Part shown: positions 19,307-27,812 of the stretch, piece after piece
How the letters are laid out: every line of letters starts with the position of its first letter
Position numbering within the stretch: the first letter of the stretch is position 1
Source of the DNA: Paramecium tetraurelia
Taxonomy: Eukaryota
Reading direction: 5' to 3'
DNA: 64,000 nucleotides
Assembly: GCA_000165425.1 (NCBI GenBank)
Contig: CT868017.1
Span: 124,001 to 188,000 of the forward strand
Position numbers and translations under genes: made by a program
Notes under the pieces: model-generated
What the model saw: the letters and a program-made list of their open reading frames with translations, nothing else
Told to the model about the DNA's origin: nothing
Database searches by the model: none

Positions 19307-21115
19307 ATGCACGATCAAGGTATGTGATTTATTGGAACTAGGTATTTCACAGCCCATACCCTCAAACCTCCCTAGGCAATCTTTCGTAAGACAGTTTCGA
19401 TAGACATATGTATTAATAAATCCCCAAATCTTAGAAAGCCCAGTTTCCCAGGACTAAAAAGAATAATTTTTCAAAGAATCCAAACTTACCGTCTCATTTT
19501 CCTCTCCGCCGAATTCTGGCCGAGATAACTGCATTCCTGACGAAGAAGTAATATCGTACTTCATCCCAGATGACAACCACTCTCAAGCCAGCTACAAATA
19601 GGTACGCTTCATTGAACCCCAAGAAAAGTAATTTGATAACATAAGTAGAGTAGAACTACTAATACTATTGGATATAAATACAGAAGGCAGAGGTCCATTC
19701 CCATCCCTGAAAAAGTTCAAGAAGATTTGATTGGAGAATCCTCTTAACTCTCTCCTTACAACAAGAGTTAAATCCGTATTAAAGAACGGTAACATATGAA
19801 TTAATCGACTAATTTATTACATGACAATGAAAATTAATTTGCCTTAAATGCCATCCAACTAGACAATAGTTTTGGTCTGAAAACAGTCTCATCAAGCTAA
19901 TTATCTGATCAAATCAACCAATTGGCAGATGAACTAGTCACTTTAGTCAAGAATTACTTAAATGATATTTCATACCATGAAAGGCATTTCACTTTTGACG
20001 AGCGAGAAAATGACAACAGAAATCGATAACAACTCTAACGAAGAGTACTTTAAGTAAAATTTACAATTATTAAATAGAAAGCTTTAGAAAACCTAAATCT
20101 TAGGTAAAATTTCTCCACTTCCTCTCCTATTTCCAAAAGATCCAATGTGCAACATAGTCTAGATGATTTCAATGTAGACTATTAAGAATTGCTATCAAAA
20201 ATTGAGGAACTAACTGATTAAAATGATTTATTGAAGGATAAATTAGAAATCCAAGATTTGAAATTGTTAGAACAATATGAAGAAGTTAAAGAACTCAGGA
20301 TATAATTTGTGGATTTGGAATTGAAAAACAAGTCTCTGTTAATTGATTTAGATTCTAAAGAGTAAGAAATCGCTACTTTAAATGAGTAGTTGTTGCAATT
20401 AAAAAAATAATTAGATGACTAAATTAAAATTGGTTAAATGCAAACGTAAAAAATCTCATCATTGGAATAACAATAGATGATTGAAAAATAATCGAATTCA
20501 TATTATTACACCTTAAAACCAAATTCTAGTAGTCTGAATAGGTCATTTAAAAAGGAGAAAAAACATACAAATTCATTTCATGAAGTCTGTTCGTCCCCCA
20601 ATGGAAAGAAAATTATGATAGTAAACAGTAGCACCAATAGTTCGCAACAATCTCCAAGGAATCTATAAATCTCAAATAGTAAAACCCTCAATTTGGATGA
20701 TACTACTTACTTTGGATCAGTTTACAACGAAAAAAGATAAGGATATGGAAATCTAAAGAAGGGAGATAAGAAATTGTATATGGGTATTAATGATATGTTA
20801 ACAAAAAGGATTCTGGAAGGACGACTCTTTCAACGGGTTTGGACATTTAAACAATGAGACTGTGGATTTTGGCATAATTGATTACAGAAACTTAGATTCA
20901 GTAGGAAATAAGTGGATTAGCTATCAAGGGGAGTTTTAGGATGGTTTATTTCATGGTTATGGAATTTGGACATTTAGTGACAATTCTAGATTCCATGGAG
21001 TGTTCTAATTAGGCAAGGCTTGTGGTAGAGGGTACTATATTAGATATCAATTAGTGCTTACTATACAAATATTAATACTATTTAGGGAATATGGAATAAA
21101 AATATTAAAATGTGA
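19307..21115 (+). CDS. Coiled-coil protein with C-terminal MORN repeats
   Basis: Heptad-rich middle; YFGSVYNEKRQGYG, SYQGEFQDGLFHGYGIWTFSDNSRFHGVFQLGKACGRG. Confidence 0.8.
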
Positions 21116-21135
21116 TAATATATATTTATATCATA

Positions 21136-23431
21136 TCATATCTTGATAAATGTGTGATAATTTTTATGACTGGTGGCTACATAACATTTCCAATCATCTT
21201 TTTTAAGTACATAACATTCTTCGCAAAAATAAAATCCAAAGCAGTTTTCACACTTATAAACACTTCCAGATTTCTCCAATTCGCAACCTTAGCACTTATA
21301 GGTTTTCTTTTGATAAATCTAAACTTCATAAATGGGTTCAAAGCGATGATCAGCTTTATGTCTTTGTCCATTCAATTCTGATTGTGTTCTAGTGAAGAAA
21401 CAATTTTAGCCTTTAATAAGTAGAATAATTAATTACATAAACTAAAATTCGTACACTATTTACAAACAAATTACACTCCTAAAATGGGTTTTTGAAAGCA
21501 TCCATTACATTTTGCATCATGACAAGGTATGCCTTCAGCAAAAGTAGGTAGTTCTATCACTTTGAAGTCATGATCTTTATGAGCAGGATCTCCAGTTATC
21601 AATAGATTATCGAAGCAAGCCTCGCAAAAATCATGATTATCACAAGTGACACATTCAAATCTAGCTCCCCAGATGGGATTCTGATCACAACCATTGCATT
21701 AGTGATATTGATGTAAGACTTCCTCGTCTGCTTTGTTAGCCAAGAAGAACATTTCTTTCTCAGTGAAGTCTCCATTACTAATTTAATAGCCTATAATTAC
21801 TGAATATTCTGATTGTAGCAATTCTAGCAAATGTCAAAATTGGCAATTTTTTTAGATTTATATCTACAAATTCCTGGTTGCAAAGAGATCCCGCAGATAT
21901 TACAACTTATCTAGACCAACCACTTCTAAAAGGTTTCTCCCAATTGATTTCCAATAGAAAACCATCCATGTCTTAGATTATGATTTCTGGCGAAGATTTC
22001 CACTTTCTTGGATCCTGGCATCATCAATTCAATGATTTCGTATAACTCGATCGGTTTCTAGGATTTATTTCTAACAGGACTAAAGATTATGTTATTCGAT
22101 ATTTTTGAGTGGTATTCCACATGTTCTCCTGGAGGACATTTATAACTAATGATGTAATTACTATTTGTATACCCAACCAGACATATTTCAAATGAGTGCA
22201 TAAAGTAATATCCTGTAGAAAGATAAACGTTATTGCCTTATGGATTCAATTTTACCCAAATAATTTGATCAACTATTTCATATCCCCACTTACTAGCCAT
22301 TTCATATGCAATATTGAGTTGAGTGTTGAGGATCCAAAGAAATAGGAATCCCTTCTTACTCAACTTCTCTATTTTAATATCCATAATCTCTTGATTGCTC
22401 ATAGTGTTGTAATCCAAAGAGAATTTGCTATTCGTGAACATAAAAGAAGAATCATTCTATTAACCACCCTTGATTCTCCAGGGAGGATCCATCAAAACAA
22501 CTAAACATTAAATTAACATAACATACCATCAAAGCCACCCACTTTCTCGACTAGGAAGTCAATGTTAAAGTATCTAATATCACAATTAATATAAGATTTA
22601 ATTTCTCCCAATTTTGATAGTATTTCTTAATTTTCAATTCCTAACAGTTTTAAATTACGTTTAGTTTCAAAATCTGTTCCATTTTCAGTCAATACTCTCA
22701 GAGGTTCGTCATCTTATTTCGGTTCTTCTTCCAGTTACTTGCCATCGCCTTCCTATCCTGTTGAGCACTCAGGTTAGGTTAGTTGTTTCAATTCAGCGGC
22801 AGTCACAGGAATATCTTACATTAAAATTGATATGGTACCTTGAAATATCTTGACATAAATGTTCTTGAATAGTTCTTTGACTAGGTTCTCTTGTTCACTA
22901 CCTTAAGACAGGATTTATTTTTGTTCATAAGATTTTTTAAAGATCTTGTTGACTCTCTTCAGAATGAGTCTGCTTTTGTATTGGACTTCGTCGGAGGAGT
23001 CTTCAAGATCTATGTGTTTGTGAGTCCTACGAAACTTTTTGGATTTCTTGTGTTTGATCTTGGGATCGAACTCGGAAGAGTTGTCGGATTCGAGAACCAA
23101 TTATTCACAGGATATTGGTAATTATTTGATTTAAGTTGGTTCTTGGTTTTGCTACACCTCTTCTCTTGGCGGGGTCTGCAATTCAGTATTCTTCTTTTTA
23201 CGAGGTTACTTATTCTGAGTGATGACTTTGGGGTGCTAAATTACAGGCATGGGTTGAAGTGCTGGGAGTAAAAAAGATCTTGTTACCTTGAGTACCGGTT
23301 TACTTTCTCTCTCTCTTATTGTACACCAGATTATCAAGATTGATCTACTTTAATCCGGTCTTTTGTTTTTGAACATTTTTTTAGGTGTCAGAGGTCAGTT
23401 TGACATCGCAACTCTTTTCTTGGTCAGTCAT
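21136..23431 (-). CDS. MT-A70 family N6-adenine methyltransferase with four C-terminal ZZ-type zinc fingers (AMT2/AMT5-like)
   Basis: [17 protein letters not shown] (22478-22489), [59 protein letters not shown] units such as [31 protein letters not shown]. Confidence 0.9.
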
Positions 23432-23498
23432 TAATTTTTAATTTTTTTATTCAATCCCCACATGGAAGCCATTATAAATATTTATAAATAAAAAATAA

Positions 23499-27812
<4,314 letters not shown>

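What the first reader, a model, noticed from the sequence alone, without database searches (positions are those of the whole stretch)
21136..23431. MT-A70 N6-adenine methyltransferase fused to four ZZ zinc fingers
Seen: an intact DPPW motif, a complete MT-A70 core ending GWFSIGNQL, four Cys/His ZZ-type units (the first degenerate) and a basic low-complexity N-terminus. Known: ciliates carry ApT 6mA written by MT-A70 enzymes, the ZZ-bearing subclade corresponds to Tetrahymena AMT2/AMT5, and some ZZ domains bind histone H3 N-termini. Inference: a chromatin-reading DNA 6mA writer, possibly acting de novo in the developing macronucleus.
Basis: partly seen in the sequence, partly recalled or inferred. 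Interest (0 to 1): 0.8.

Follow-up and report, generated by a model that had tools for sequence, protein, structure and literature searches.

The report
Known Paramecium AMT2-type adenine methyltransferase gene
This is an already deposited Paramecium tetraurelia gene for an adenine methyltransferase with four zinc fingers at its tail, a relative of the Tetrahymena enzyme that lays down new N6-methyladenine marks on DNA, so the find is real but not new.

Summary
On the minus strand, 23431 (ATG) to 21136 (TGA), lies a 7-exon, 6-intron gene read with the ciliate code. Its 714-aa product is 714/714 identical to CAI39084.1/Q3SE41, deposited as 'Putative N6-adenosine-methyltransferase with ZZ-type zinc-binding domains', Paramecium tetraurelia.

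It has a disordered N-terminus, an MT-A70 domain (Pfam E 1.1e-35) with DPPW, SQKP and F-A-R intact, and four ZZ units. The first keeps only one zinc site.

In my tree it sits with the ZZ-bearing MT-A70 proteins (SH-aLRT 99), outside the METTL3 and AMT1/MTA1 clades. Published work assigns ZZ-bearing MT-A70 proteins to the AMT2/AMT5 subclade. It shows Tetrahymena AMT2/AMT5 are needed for de novo DNA 6mA in the new macronucleus, and says Paramecium has only AMT2 homologs.

Function in Paramecium is untested.

New detail: only ZZ1 and ZZ2 carry the Asp/Asn + Asp signature of histone-H3-binding ZZ domains, and it is conserved across the family.

Stranded RNA reads show the gene is transcribed. The homodimer test could not be run.

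The parts
21136..23431 (-). Whole coding region (ATG 23431, TGA ending 21136). It has 7 exons: 23431-23287, 23261-22839, 22814-22527, 22500-22173, 22145-21801, 21777-21437, 21410-21136. The product is 714 aa.
   Evidence: The spliced translation under code 6 is 714/714 identical to P0054 = CAI39084.1/Q3SE41.
23262..23286 (-). Intron 1, 25 nt, GTA...CAG; shifts the frame.
   Evidence: Needed to join the two open frames. The product matches the deposited protein.
22815..22838 (-). Intron 2, 24 nt, in frame (would read GTISILMQ).
   Evidence: The 8 residues are absent from all 7 Paramecium homologs aligned.
22501..22526 (-). Intron 3, 26 nt, just upstream of the DPPW codons.
22146..22172 (-). Intron 4, 27 nt, in frame (would read YTNSNYIIS), inside the MT-A70 domain.
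   Evidence: Absent from the homologs. The family consensus reads ICLVGYKCPPGE. The automatic model P0053 splices differently here.
21778..21800 (-). Intron 5, 23 nt, after ZZ1.
21411..21436 (-). Intron 6, 26 nt, splits ZZ3.
22600..23431 (-). N-terminal region, aa 1-261. It is predicted disordered: basic in 1-180, with Lys/Arg clusters (aa 66-72 and 116-131), and acidic in 181-261.
   Evidence: No Pfam family; composition; pLDDT under 50; not conserved outside Paramecium (consensus).
21920..22599 (-). MT-A70 catalytic domain, aa 262-470 (the span includes introns 3 and 4).
   Evidence: Pfam PF05063, E 1.1e-35. PDB sequence search: Tetrahymena MTA1 112.8 bits, METTL3 101 bits. Foldseek: MTA1 7yi8_B at 1.9e-19, METTL3 with TM about 0.8.
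22478..22489 (-). DPPW catalytic motif, aa 290-293.
   Evidence: invariant in 37/37 family members.
21986..21994 (-). F446-A447-R448, the 'FxR' SAM-binding residues named for AMT2.
   Evidence: F 37/37, A 37/37, R 36/37; PMC12077518, section 13.
21777..21910 (-). ZZ1, aa 474-510 (the span includes intron 5). A half ZZ with one Cys4 site, where a conserved basic RYKSKK stretch stands in place of the second CxxC.
   Evidence: Pfam ZZ 25.6 bits. C476, C479, K491, C501 and C504 are invariant 37/37; D499 is 36/37.
21561..21710 (-). ZZ2, aa 533-582. A complete ZZ that carries N538 and D559.
   Evidence: Pfam ZZ, 43.9 bits for the exon. Best solved relative is the HERC2 ZZ fused to H3, 6ww4, E 1.1e-8. 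Conservation.
21337..21518 (-). ZZ3, aa 597-648 (the span includes intron 6). A complete ZZ, with no Asp at the cage position (S622).
21145..21303 (-). ZZ4, aa 660-712. All 8 ligands are present, with no Asp at the cage position (Y684).
   Evidence: Pfam 16.4 bits, below the cut-off; ligands; present in 22-25 of 37 family members.

Best explanation
The gene is one of four whole-genome-duplication paralogs in Paramecium tetraurelia of the AMT2-type MT-A70 methyltransferase (CAI39084 = GSPATT00032234001).

Shown here:
- An intact, transcribed gene.
- The product has a complete SAM-dependent N6-adenine methyltransferase core (DPPW, SQKP, F-A-R).
- Four C-terminal ZZ zinc-finger units follow the core.
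- A disordered, largely basic N-terminus precedes it.

Inferred from orthology to Tetrahymena AMT2:
- It methylates DNA, not mRNA.
- It turns unmethylated ApT into hemi-methylated 6mApT when a new macronucleus forms.
- The AMT1/MTA1 complex then completes and maintains the mark.

Inferred from sequence signatures:
- The ZZ units are protein-binding modules.
- ZZ2, and perhaps the half-finger ZZ1, could cage a free protein N-terminus such as Ala1 of histone H3 and so tether the enzyme to chromatin.
- ZZ3 and ZZ4 lack that signature.

Paramecium has no catalytically dead AMT5-type partner. The enzyme would therefore have to work as a homodimer, a dimer of paralogs, or with unknown partners.
For: - Identity to the deposited protein: 714/714.
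- Pfam finds MT-A70 plus ZZ.
- The catalytic and SAM-binding residues are invariant or nearly so in the 37-member family alignment.
- Library search: of 1.84 billion representatives, 5372 score E<=1e-3 and only 37 score E<=1e-30. A score gap (253 to 187 bits against my domain profile) sets the ZZ-bearing group apart.
- Tree of 78 rows: the window's protein lies in a clade of 28 rows (27 of the ZZ group plus one long-branch row), SH-aLRT 99. This clade is apart from a 24-row clade whose member P0194 matches human METTL3 at 395 bits. It is also apart from a 26-row clade whose member P0166 matches Tetrahymena MTA1 at 244.8 bits.
- My strict three-CxxC pattern matched 22 of 27 ZZ-group rows, none of the 50 rows of the other two clades, and not the long-branch row P0179 inside the ZZ clade.
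- Papers: PMC7145601 (passages) says AMT2/AMT5 bear C-terminal ZZ fingers. PMC12077518 (abstract, sections 12-13) says AMT2/AMT5 knock-outs lose most de novo 6mA in the new MAC, APPA or APPF mutants of AMT2 do not rescue, and Paramecium has only AMT2 homologs. PMC10173741 (passages) places PbAMT2 in the AMT2/5 clade; P0004 from P. bursaria is 82% identical over the core.
- RNA: oligo-dT stranded reads of two runs lie on the gene. 213 reads were laid in X21 (170 at >=99% identity) and 382 in X22 (327 at >=99%). Their orientation is opposite to that of both neighbours.
- ZZ signature: ZZ2 aligns to the H3-bound HERC2 ZZ at E 1.1e-8. N538 and D559 fit the rule 'invariable Asp plus Asp or Asn' of H3-binding ZZ domains (PMC6138639, passage). 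These positions are conserved: 34/37 are N or D at 538, and 36/37 are D at 559. For ZZ1, 36/37 are D or N at 477 and 36/37 are D at 499.
Against: - No experiment on the Paramecium genes was found. A February 2026 preprint states that the Paramecium 6mA writer is unknown, with at least 14 candidate genes (10.64898/2026.02.13.705781, passages).
[quoted passage not shown] DNA as the direct substrate therefore rests on genetics.
- The MT-A70 core scores almost as well against METTL3 (101 bits) as against MTA1 (112.8 bits). The depositors named it an N6-adenosine methyltransferase.
- My tree holds no sequence verified as Tetrahymena AMT2 or AMT5, and no METTL4, METTL14 or AMT6/7.
- Of the HERC2 acidic triad D2709/D2728/D2730, only the last is an Asp in ZZ2 (N538, N557, D559), and D2709A abolishes binding in HERC2 (PMC9001736, passage). 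PMC6138639 also reports that acidic residues alone do not confer H3 binding.
- The developmental stage of the RNA runs is unknown. No splice joints were listed from the 58-nt reads.
Confidence: 0.8

Rival explanations
1. It writes 6mA outside the new-macronucleus de novo step. Two possibilities are the recently reported micronuclear/anlagen 6mA that marks retained DNA against excision, and vegetative macronuclear non-symmetric 6mA. In either case its main role in Paramecium would differ from that of Tetrahymena AMT2.
For: The Paramecium writer of germline 6mA is unknown, and its site preference (VATB) differs from Tetrahymena's (10.64898/2026.02.13.705781, passages). Paramecium lacks AMT5 (PMC12077518, section 13). 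The gene is transcribed at moderate depth in two oligo-dT runs of unknown stage. PMC7145601 (passage) proposed that AMT2/AMT5 make AMT1-independent asymmetric and non-ApT 6mA.
Against: There is no direct evidence. Orthology predicts the new-MAC role. The preprint lists at least 14 candidate genes, so the prior for any one family is modest.
Confidence: 0.12
2. It is an RNA m6A methyltransferase, as the deposited name 'N6-adenosine-methyltransferase' and some automatic names of homologs ('methyltransferase like 3', 'IME4') suggest.
For: Names given by sources. The MT-A70 core matches METTL3 at 101 bits, and Foldseek TM is about 0.8 to METTL3 structures.
Against: It lies outside the METTL3 clade (SH-aLRT 99 on both clade branches). 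No CCCH zinc finger or other family was found N-terminal of the domain. Ciliates have separate METTL3 and METTL14 orthologs: AMT4/AMT3 in Tetrahymena and PbAMT4/PbAMT3 in P. bursaria (PMC7145601 and PMC10173741, passages). Tetrahymena AMT2/AMT5 loss lowers DNA 6mA (PMC12077518).
Confidence: 0.05
3. It is a non-catalytic scaffold or a decaying duplicate among four paralogs.
For: Four paralogs exist. AMT5-type members with eroded motifs occur in the same clade, for example P0047 with NPVW and F-A-S.
Against: The frame is open over 714 codons, and DPPW, SQKP and F-A-R are intact. The MT-A70 domain is 96.7-97.6% identical among paralogs, against 79-84% in the N-terminus, which indicates purifying selection on the core. 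The gene is transcribed.
Confidence: 0.03

Closest known systems
Tetrahymena thermophila AMT2 (TAMT-1), with its partner AMT5: the AMT2/5 subclade of MT-A70 and the de novo DNA 6mA methyltransferases (PMC12077518, PMC7145601)
   Same: MT-A70 core with DPPW and FxR, as in AMT2. Several C-terminal ZZ-type zinc fingers. Published statement that Paramecium carries AMT2 homologs.
   Different: Paramecium has four AMT2-type paralogs and no AMT5-type dead partner. The N-terminal region is lineage-specific. No functional data exist for Paramecium. I could not obtain the Tetrahymena sequences, so the relation is shown through architecture, through a clade shared with an Ichthyophthirius protein (P0016, 61% identity over the core) and through the literature.
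The deposited record itself: CAI39084.1 / UniProt Q3SE41 'Putative N6-adenosine-methyltransferase with ZZ-type zinc-binding domains' (P. tetraurelia); automatic model GSPATT00032234001 / XP_001429400.1
   Same: 714/714 identical to the window's spliced product.
   Different: The automatic model (P0053, 711 aa) uses another splice at intron 4 (708/711 identical).
Paramecium bursaria PbAMT2 (PMC10173741)
   Same: Same genus and same architecture. The P. bursaria protein P0004 is 82% identical over the core and 68.9% overall.
   Different: That P0004 is the paper's PbAMT2 is my assumption. PbAMT2 was only classified, not tested; the paper knocked down PbAMT1.
AMT1/MTA1, catalytic subunit of the MTA1c maintenance complex (PDB 7yi8, 7f4r and others)
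   Same: Best solved relative by sequence (112.8 bits) and by fold (E 1.9e-19). Same DPPW chemistry on ApT DNA.
   Different: It is a separate clade. AMT1-type proteins end right after the GNEL motif (32 of the 97 non-ZZ rows) and have no ZZ fingers. They work with AMT6/7 and p1/p2.
METTL3, the mRNA m6A writer
   Same: MT-A70 fold, TM about 0.8, 35-37% identity.
   Different: It is a separate clade. METTL3 has CCCH fingers N-terminal of the domain and pairs with METTL14. Here the fingers are ZZ-type and C-terminal.
ZZ domains that bind free N-termini: HERC2, ZZZ3, p300/CBP (histone H3 Ala1) and p62 (N-degrons)
   Same: ZZ2 aligns to the HERC2 ZZ at E 1.1e-8 and keeps the Asn/Asp + Asp pair described for H3 binders (PMC6138639).
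   Different: Two of the three HERC2 pocket aspartates are Asn here. ZZ3 and ZZ4 lack the Asp. ZZ1 lacks the second zinc site. No binding data exist.

Membership tests
AMT2/AMT5 subclade of MT-A70 | MT-A70 methyltransferase domain | tested here: met
   PF05063, E 1.1e-35, 123.5 bits against a cut-off of 23.9, profile positions 4-172 of 172.
AMT2/AMT5 subclade of MT-A70 | AMT2-type catalytic motif [DNSH]PP[YFW] and SAM-binding FxR (AMT5 has APPF and FTK; PMC12077518) | tested here: met
   DPPW at aa 290-293 and F446-A-R448. All four P. tetraurelia paralogs have DPPW.
AMT2/AMT5 subclade of MT-A70 | Several ZZ-type zinc fingers C-terminal of the domain (PMC7145601) | tested here: met
   Four units. 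Pfam ZZ is above the cut-off for ZZ1 and for the ZZ2 exon, and ZZ4 is below it.
AMT2/AMT5 subclade of MT-A70 | Phylogenetic placement with ZZ-bearing MT-A70 proteins, apart from the METTL3 and AMT1 clades | tested here: met
   Clade of 28 rows, SH-aLRT 99. The other clades were labelled through PDB matches. Quick search only; 78 of 124 eligible rows were used.
AMT2/AMT5 subclade of MT-A70 | Groups directly with Tetrahymena AMT2/AMT5 in a tree that also holds METTL4, METTL14 and AMT6/7 | not tested
   No tool gave me those named sequences. The accession lists of the published trees are in supplements that could not be read. I rely on the papers' text.
AMT2/AMT5 subclade of MT-A70 | Required for de novo DNA 6mA in the developing macronucleus | not testable with these tools
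   Needs knock-down plus 6mA mapping. Only transcription was seen.
METTL3 (mRNA m6A writer) | Membership of the METTL3 clade, with CCCH zinc fingers N-terminal of the MT-A70 domain | tested here: not met
   Outside the 24-row METTL3 clade. No Pfam family in the N-terminal exons.
AMT1/MTA1 (maintenance 6mA methyltransferase) | Membership of the AMT1 clade; the protein ends at the GNEL motif and has no ZZ fingers | tested here: not met
   Outside the 26-row AMT1 clade. Here GNQL is followed by 244 further residues.
Histone-H3-binding ZZ domains | An invariable Asp before the third Cys pair, plus Asp or Asn inside the first Cys pair (PMC6138639) | tested here: met
   ZZ2 has N538 + D559 and ZZ1 has N477 + D499. 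ZZ3 (N601, S622) and ZZ4 (Q664, Y684) do not meet it.
Histone-H3-binding ZZ domains | Binding of the H3 N-terminal peptide with a free alpha-amino group | not testable with these tools
PMC6138639 notes that the acidic residues alone are not sufficient.

The most novel reading that the evidence does not exclude
Paramecium's AMT2-type paralogs work without any AMT5-type dead partner, as homo- or paralog-dimers. They are the still unidentified writers of the 6mA that marks retained (MDS) DNA against excision in the germline and the developing macronucleus. They are steered to chromatin by ZZ1/ZZ2 caging the free N-terminus of histone H3.
Probability: 0.12. Interest if true: 0.7.

Novelty: already known. 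Interest (0 to 1): 0.25.

Why it matters
As a discovery it does not matter much. The gene, its domain description and its family are already in public records and papers.

It is still a sensible candidate for an open question. A 2026 preprint reports that 6mA protects Paramecium DNA from programmed deletion and that the responsible methyltransferase is unknown. Tetrahymena work leaves two things unexplained: what the ZZ fingers do, and how AMT2 becomes active.

Two findings here give concrete mutants and peptides to test. First, only ZZ1 and ZZ2 carry a conserved H3-reader-like signature. Second, all four Paramecium paralogs are catalytically intact.

Tried and rejected
- A 4-intron gene model (731 aa) was rejected after alignment showed two more in-frame introns.
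- A whole-genome search for paralogs was not possible: no genome is held for this window.
- Complex prediction for a homodimer of the MT-A70 domain (alignment A1, residues 235-475, two copies) was never run. The queue was full and the tool then became unavailable. The dimer question stays open.
- A 'near'-length word-index search for outgroups returned only fragments of the same family. The outgroups came from the exhaustive representative search instead.
- Expression stage: searches for the four GSPATT ids in the paper library found 0 papers. The readable supplements of PMC3091696 and PMC5485702 held no occurrence.
- The supplements of PMC7145601 and PMC12077518, which list the accessions in the published trees, were too large to read.
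- Sequencing runs: no listed holder is on record as RNA in the index. Contigs of X3 laid nothing, and those of X9 laid only on the neighbouring gene.
- No splice joints were listed from the 58-nt raw reads. Depth is lower in the bins that hold introns 3, 4, 5 and 6, which I treat as weak.
- A search for Paramecium gene names such as PtAMT2 returned only plant ammonium-transporter and other unrelated plant papers.
- Earlier scan notes on this genome: none.
Full report
**What is there.** The window is AT-rich (about 30% G+C). The region is open only under the ciliate nuclear code. On the minus strand an ATG at 23431 opens a frame that, after removal of short GTA...AG introns, runs to a TGA ending at 21136.

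My first model used the four introns needed to keep the frame and gave 731 aa. Aligning it with seven Paramecium homologs showed two extra segments, of 8 and 9 residues, that no homolog has. Both coincide with candidate in-frame introns of 24 and 27 nt.

With six introns (23-27 nt, 64-85% A+T) the product is 714 aa and identical at 714 of 714 positions to stored protein P0054. The sources name P0054 CAI39084.1 / UniProt Q3SE41, 'Putative N6-adenosine-methyltransferase with ZZ-type zinc-binding domains', Paramecium tetraurelia. The automatic model of the same locus is GSPATT00032234001 / XP_001429400.1 (711 aa, 708/711 identical; it differs at intron 4).

**Domains.** Pfam gives MT-A70 at E 1.1e-35 and ZZ hits in exons 5, 6 and 7. 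DPPW is at aa 290-293 (22489-22478) and GWFSIGNQL at aa 455-463 (21967-21941).
- ZZ2, ZZ3 and ZZ4 each have the full set of six Cys and two His.
- ZZ1 keeps only the first and third Cys pairs (C476, C479, C501, C504). It has RYKSKK where the second pair should be, and no His pair.
Yet in a 37-member family alignment (A1) those four Cys and K491 are invariant in 37 of 37, whereas ZZ4 is present in only 22-25 of 37. ZZ1 is a conserved half-finger, not a decaying one.
- The N-terminal 261 residues have no Pfam family. They are basic over 1-180 and acidic over 181-261, and are not conserved outside Paramecium.
- In an AlphaFold2 model built on A1 (mean pLDDT 62.8), pLDDT is below 50 over nearly all of 1-261. 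The MT-A70 and ZZ parts mostly reach 70-95.

**Which MT-A70 family.**
- Against solved structures by sequence, the core scores 112.8 bits with Tetrahymena MTA1 (AMT1), 101 with human METTL3, about 55 with METTL14, 29 with a chain named 'Methyltransferase-like protein 2' (7cv6_B) and 26 with MTA9.
- By fold the order is similar (MTA1 7yi8_B at E 1.9e-19; METTL3 with TM about 0.8). Similarity to solved proteins therefore does not decide the question.
- An exhaustive phmmer search of 1.84 billion representatives with the 190-residue core found 5372 proteins at E<=1e-3, 746 at <=1e-10 and 37 at <=1e-30.
- I scored 152 proteins against a domain profile built from A1: the 150 listed, overlapping those already stored, plus other stored homologs. 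All 152 matched, and 124 covered at least 80% of the 207 profile positions. There is a gap from 253 to 187 bits between 27 proteins and the rest.
- For time I built the tree from 78 of the 124, taken in list order: all 27 of the high-scoring group, 16 of 32 that end at a GNEL-like motif, 9 of 9 with GNEV, and 26 of 56 others. The other 46 were left out.
- The quick IQ-TREE tree (LG+C20+F+G4, SH-aLRT only) has three clades. One holds 28 rows: the 27 plus P0179, a long-branch row with DPPL (support 99). One holds 24 rows (99). One holds 26 rows (93).
- A member of the 24-row clade, P0194, matches human METTL3 over 350 residues at 395 bits. A member of the 26-row clade, P0166, matches Tetrahymena MTA1 at 244.8 bits, against 121 for METTL3.
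- A strict three-CxxC pattern hit 22 of the 27 and none of the 50 rows in the other two clades. Two of the five misses (P0023, P0029) carry PF00569 in the precomputed column. The other three have C-terminal tails of only 64-95 residues.
- The window's protein is thus inside the ZZ-bearing clade, and not a METTL3 or an AMT1. The tree has no outgroup, no METTL4, METTL14 or AMT6/7, and no row that I could verify as Tetrahymena AMT2 or AMT5.

**What the literature says about that clade.**
[quoted passage not shown] PbAMT4 and PbAMT3 are the METTL3 and METTL14 orthologs.
- PMC12077518 (abstract, passages, sections 12 and 13 read in full): deleting AMT2 and/or AMT5 strongly lowers 6mA in the progeny macronucleus. 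APPA or APPF versions of AMT2 do not rescue. The model is AMT2/AMT5 making hemi-6mApT that AMT1 completes. [quoted passage not shown] AMT5 has eroded APPF and FTK where AMT2 has DPPW and FxR. [quoted passage not shown]
- In the window's protein the FxR is F446-A-R448, and SQKP is at 423-426. These and DPPW are invariant or nearly so across A1.
- All four P. tetraurelia paralogs have DPPW: CAI39082 = GSPATT00018667001, CAI39083 = GSPATT00027481001, CAI39084 = this gene, and CAI39085 = GSPATT00034815001 + 34816001.
- Among the paralogs the MT-A70 domain is 96.7-97.6% identical, the ZZ region 87-91% and the N-terminus 79-84%.
- A member of the clade from an unnamed source (P0047) has NPVW, F-A-S and an altered SQKP, so it looks AMT5-like. 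Paramecium has nothing of that kind among the hits.

**The ZZ fingers as chromatin readers.**
- By sequence, ZZ2's best solved relatives are the HERC2 ZZ fused to histone H3 (6ww4, E 1.1e-8) and the HERC2 ZZ fused to SUMO1. MIB1, BIG, p62, ZZZ3 and others follow.
- PMC9001736 (passages) names the HERC2 pocket as D2709, D2728 and D2730, and reports that D2709A or D2730A abolishes H3(1-12) binding.
- The printed alignment, with that numbering, maps these positions to N538, N557 and D559.
- PMC6138639 (passages) states that all H3-binding ZZ domains have an invariable Asp (D848 in ZZZ3) plus an Asp (D824) or Asn (p300, CBP). It also states that adding acidic residues to non-binding ZZ domains did not make them bind.
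- That D824 and D848 of ZZZ3 correspond to D2709 and D2730 of HERC2 is my inference from their positions relative to the Cys pairs. I did not align ZZZ3 here.
- By that rule ZZ2 (N538, D559) and ZZ1 (N477, D499) qualify, and ZZ3 (N601, S622) and ZZ4 (Q664, Y684) do not.
- Across the 37 family members, position 477 is D or N in 36, D499 is D in 36, position 538 is N or D in 34, and D559 is D in 36. The matching positions of ZZ3 and ZZ4 are variable.
It is not shown. The main text of PMC12077518 has no occurrence of 'zinc' or 'ZZ-type'.

**Expression.**
- Two oligo-dT stranded RNA runs carrying the same species label laid 213 reads (170 at >=99% identity) and 382 reads (327 at >=99%) on 20900-23700.
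- Across the gene, depth is about 1-16, almost entirely in the 'first mate on +' direction. Both neighbouring plus-strand genes are covered in the other direction. That fits a minus-strand transcript in the usual stranded library.
- No joints were listed from the 58-nt reads, so the introns are not confirmed by RNA here.
- A loose end at 23315 appears to come from reads of a paralog. This is my reading of its letters, and some cross-mapping is therefore likely.
- The stage of the cells is unknown to me.

**Paramecium context.** A February 2026 preprint (10.64898/2026.02.13.705781; abstract and passages read) reports 6mA in the Paramecium germline nucleus, enriched on retained DNA and able to block IES excision. 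[quoted passage not shown]

I found no paper in the held library that tests the Paramecium AMT2 homologs. Most subscription journals are not covered. The supplements of the two key Tetrahymena papers could not be read.

**Earlier notes of this scan.** Notes on other genomes (e1-554843 and e1-554196 for Cyanidioschyzon merolae, e1-609566 for a Naegleria-like amoeba) reached the same family assignment for the same architecture. They are AI notes that I did not check.

**Verdict.** The gene is the already annotated P. tetraurelia AMT2-type MT-A70 methyltransferase.

What remains open:
- its role in Paramecium;
- its partner, given that there is no AMT5 (the homodimer prediction could not be run);
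- the ligand of the ZZ fingers.

Noticed in passing
window 23499-27494, + strand: Only 67 bases upstream of the methyltransferase ATG, on the other strand, a gene starts with a small-GTPase-like N-terminus ([16 protein letters not shown]...). It continues into a 1215-codon ORF with Ras-family (partial), UCH deubiquitinase and USP47_C matches. This looks like a Ras-like GTPase fused to a USP-type deubiquitinase. It is transcribed. I did not work out the exon structure of the first 350 bases.
   Followed up: partly
window 19796-21146, + strand: A convergent neighbour encodes a coiled-coil-like, Gln/Asn-rich protein with a MORN repeat (E 1.8e-6) near its end. RNA depth stops near 21090. A loose end at 21031 fits a 23-nt intron at about 21033-21055 (my reading). 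The two genes' 3' ends therefore lie within a few tens of bases of each other.
   Followed up: partly
window 22146-22172 (intron 4): The automatic gene model GSPATT00032234001 (P0053, 711 aa) reads 'YT---NKHVEY' here, whereas the hand-deposited CAI39084 and all other Paramecium homologs read '[11 protein letters not shown]'. The public automatic model seems to use a wrong splice site.
   Followed up: yes
protein P0047 (unnamed source), in the tree: A ZZ-bearing member of the same clade, next to the Ichthyophthirius and Paramecium proteins, has NPVW for DPPW and F-A-S for F-A-R, and has lost SQKP. It looks like an AMT5-type catalytically dead paralog.
   Followed up: partly
window 21777-21910 (ZZ1): The half-finger ZZ1 replaces the second zinc knuckle by a basic stretch (R-Y-K-S-K-K) whose K491 is invariant in 37/37 family members. 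It lies directly after the catalytic domain and could be a DNA-contacting element. This is pure speculation.
   Followed up: no
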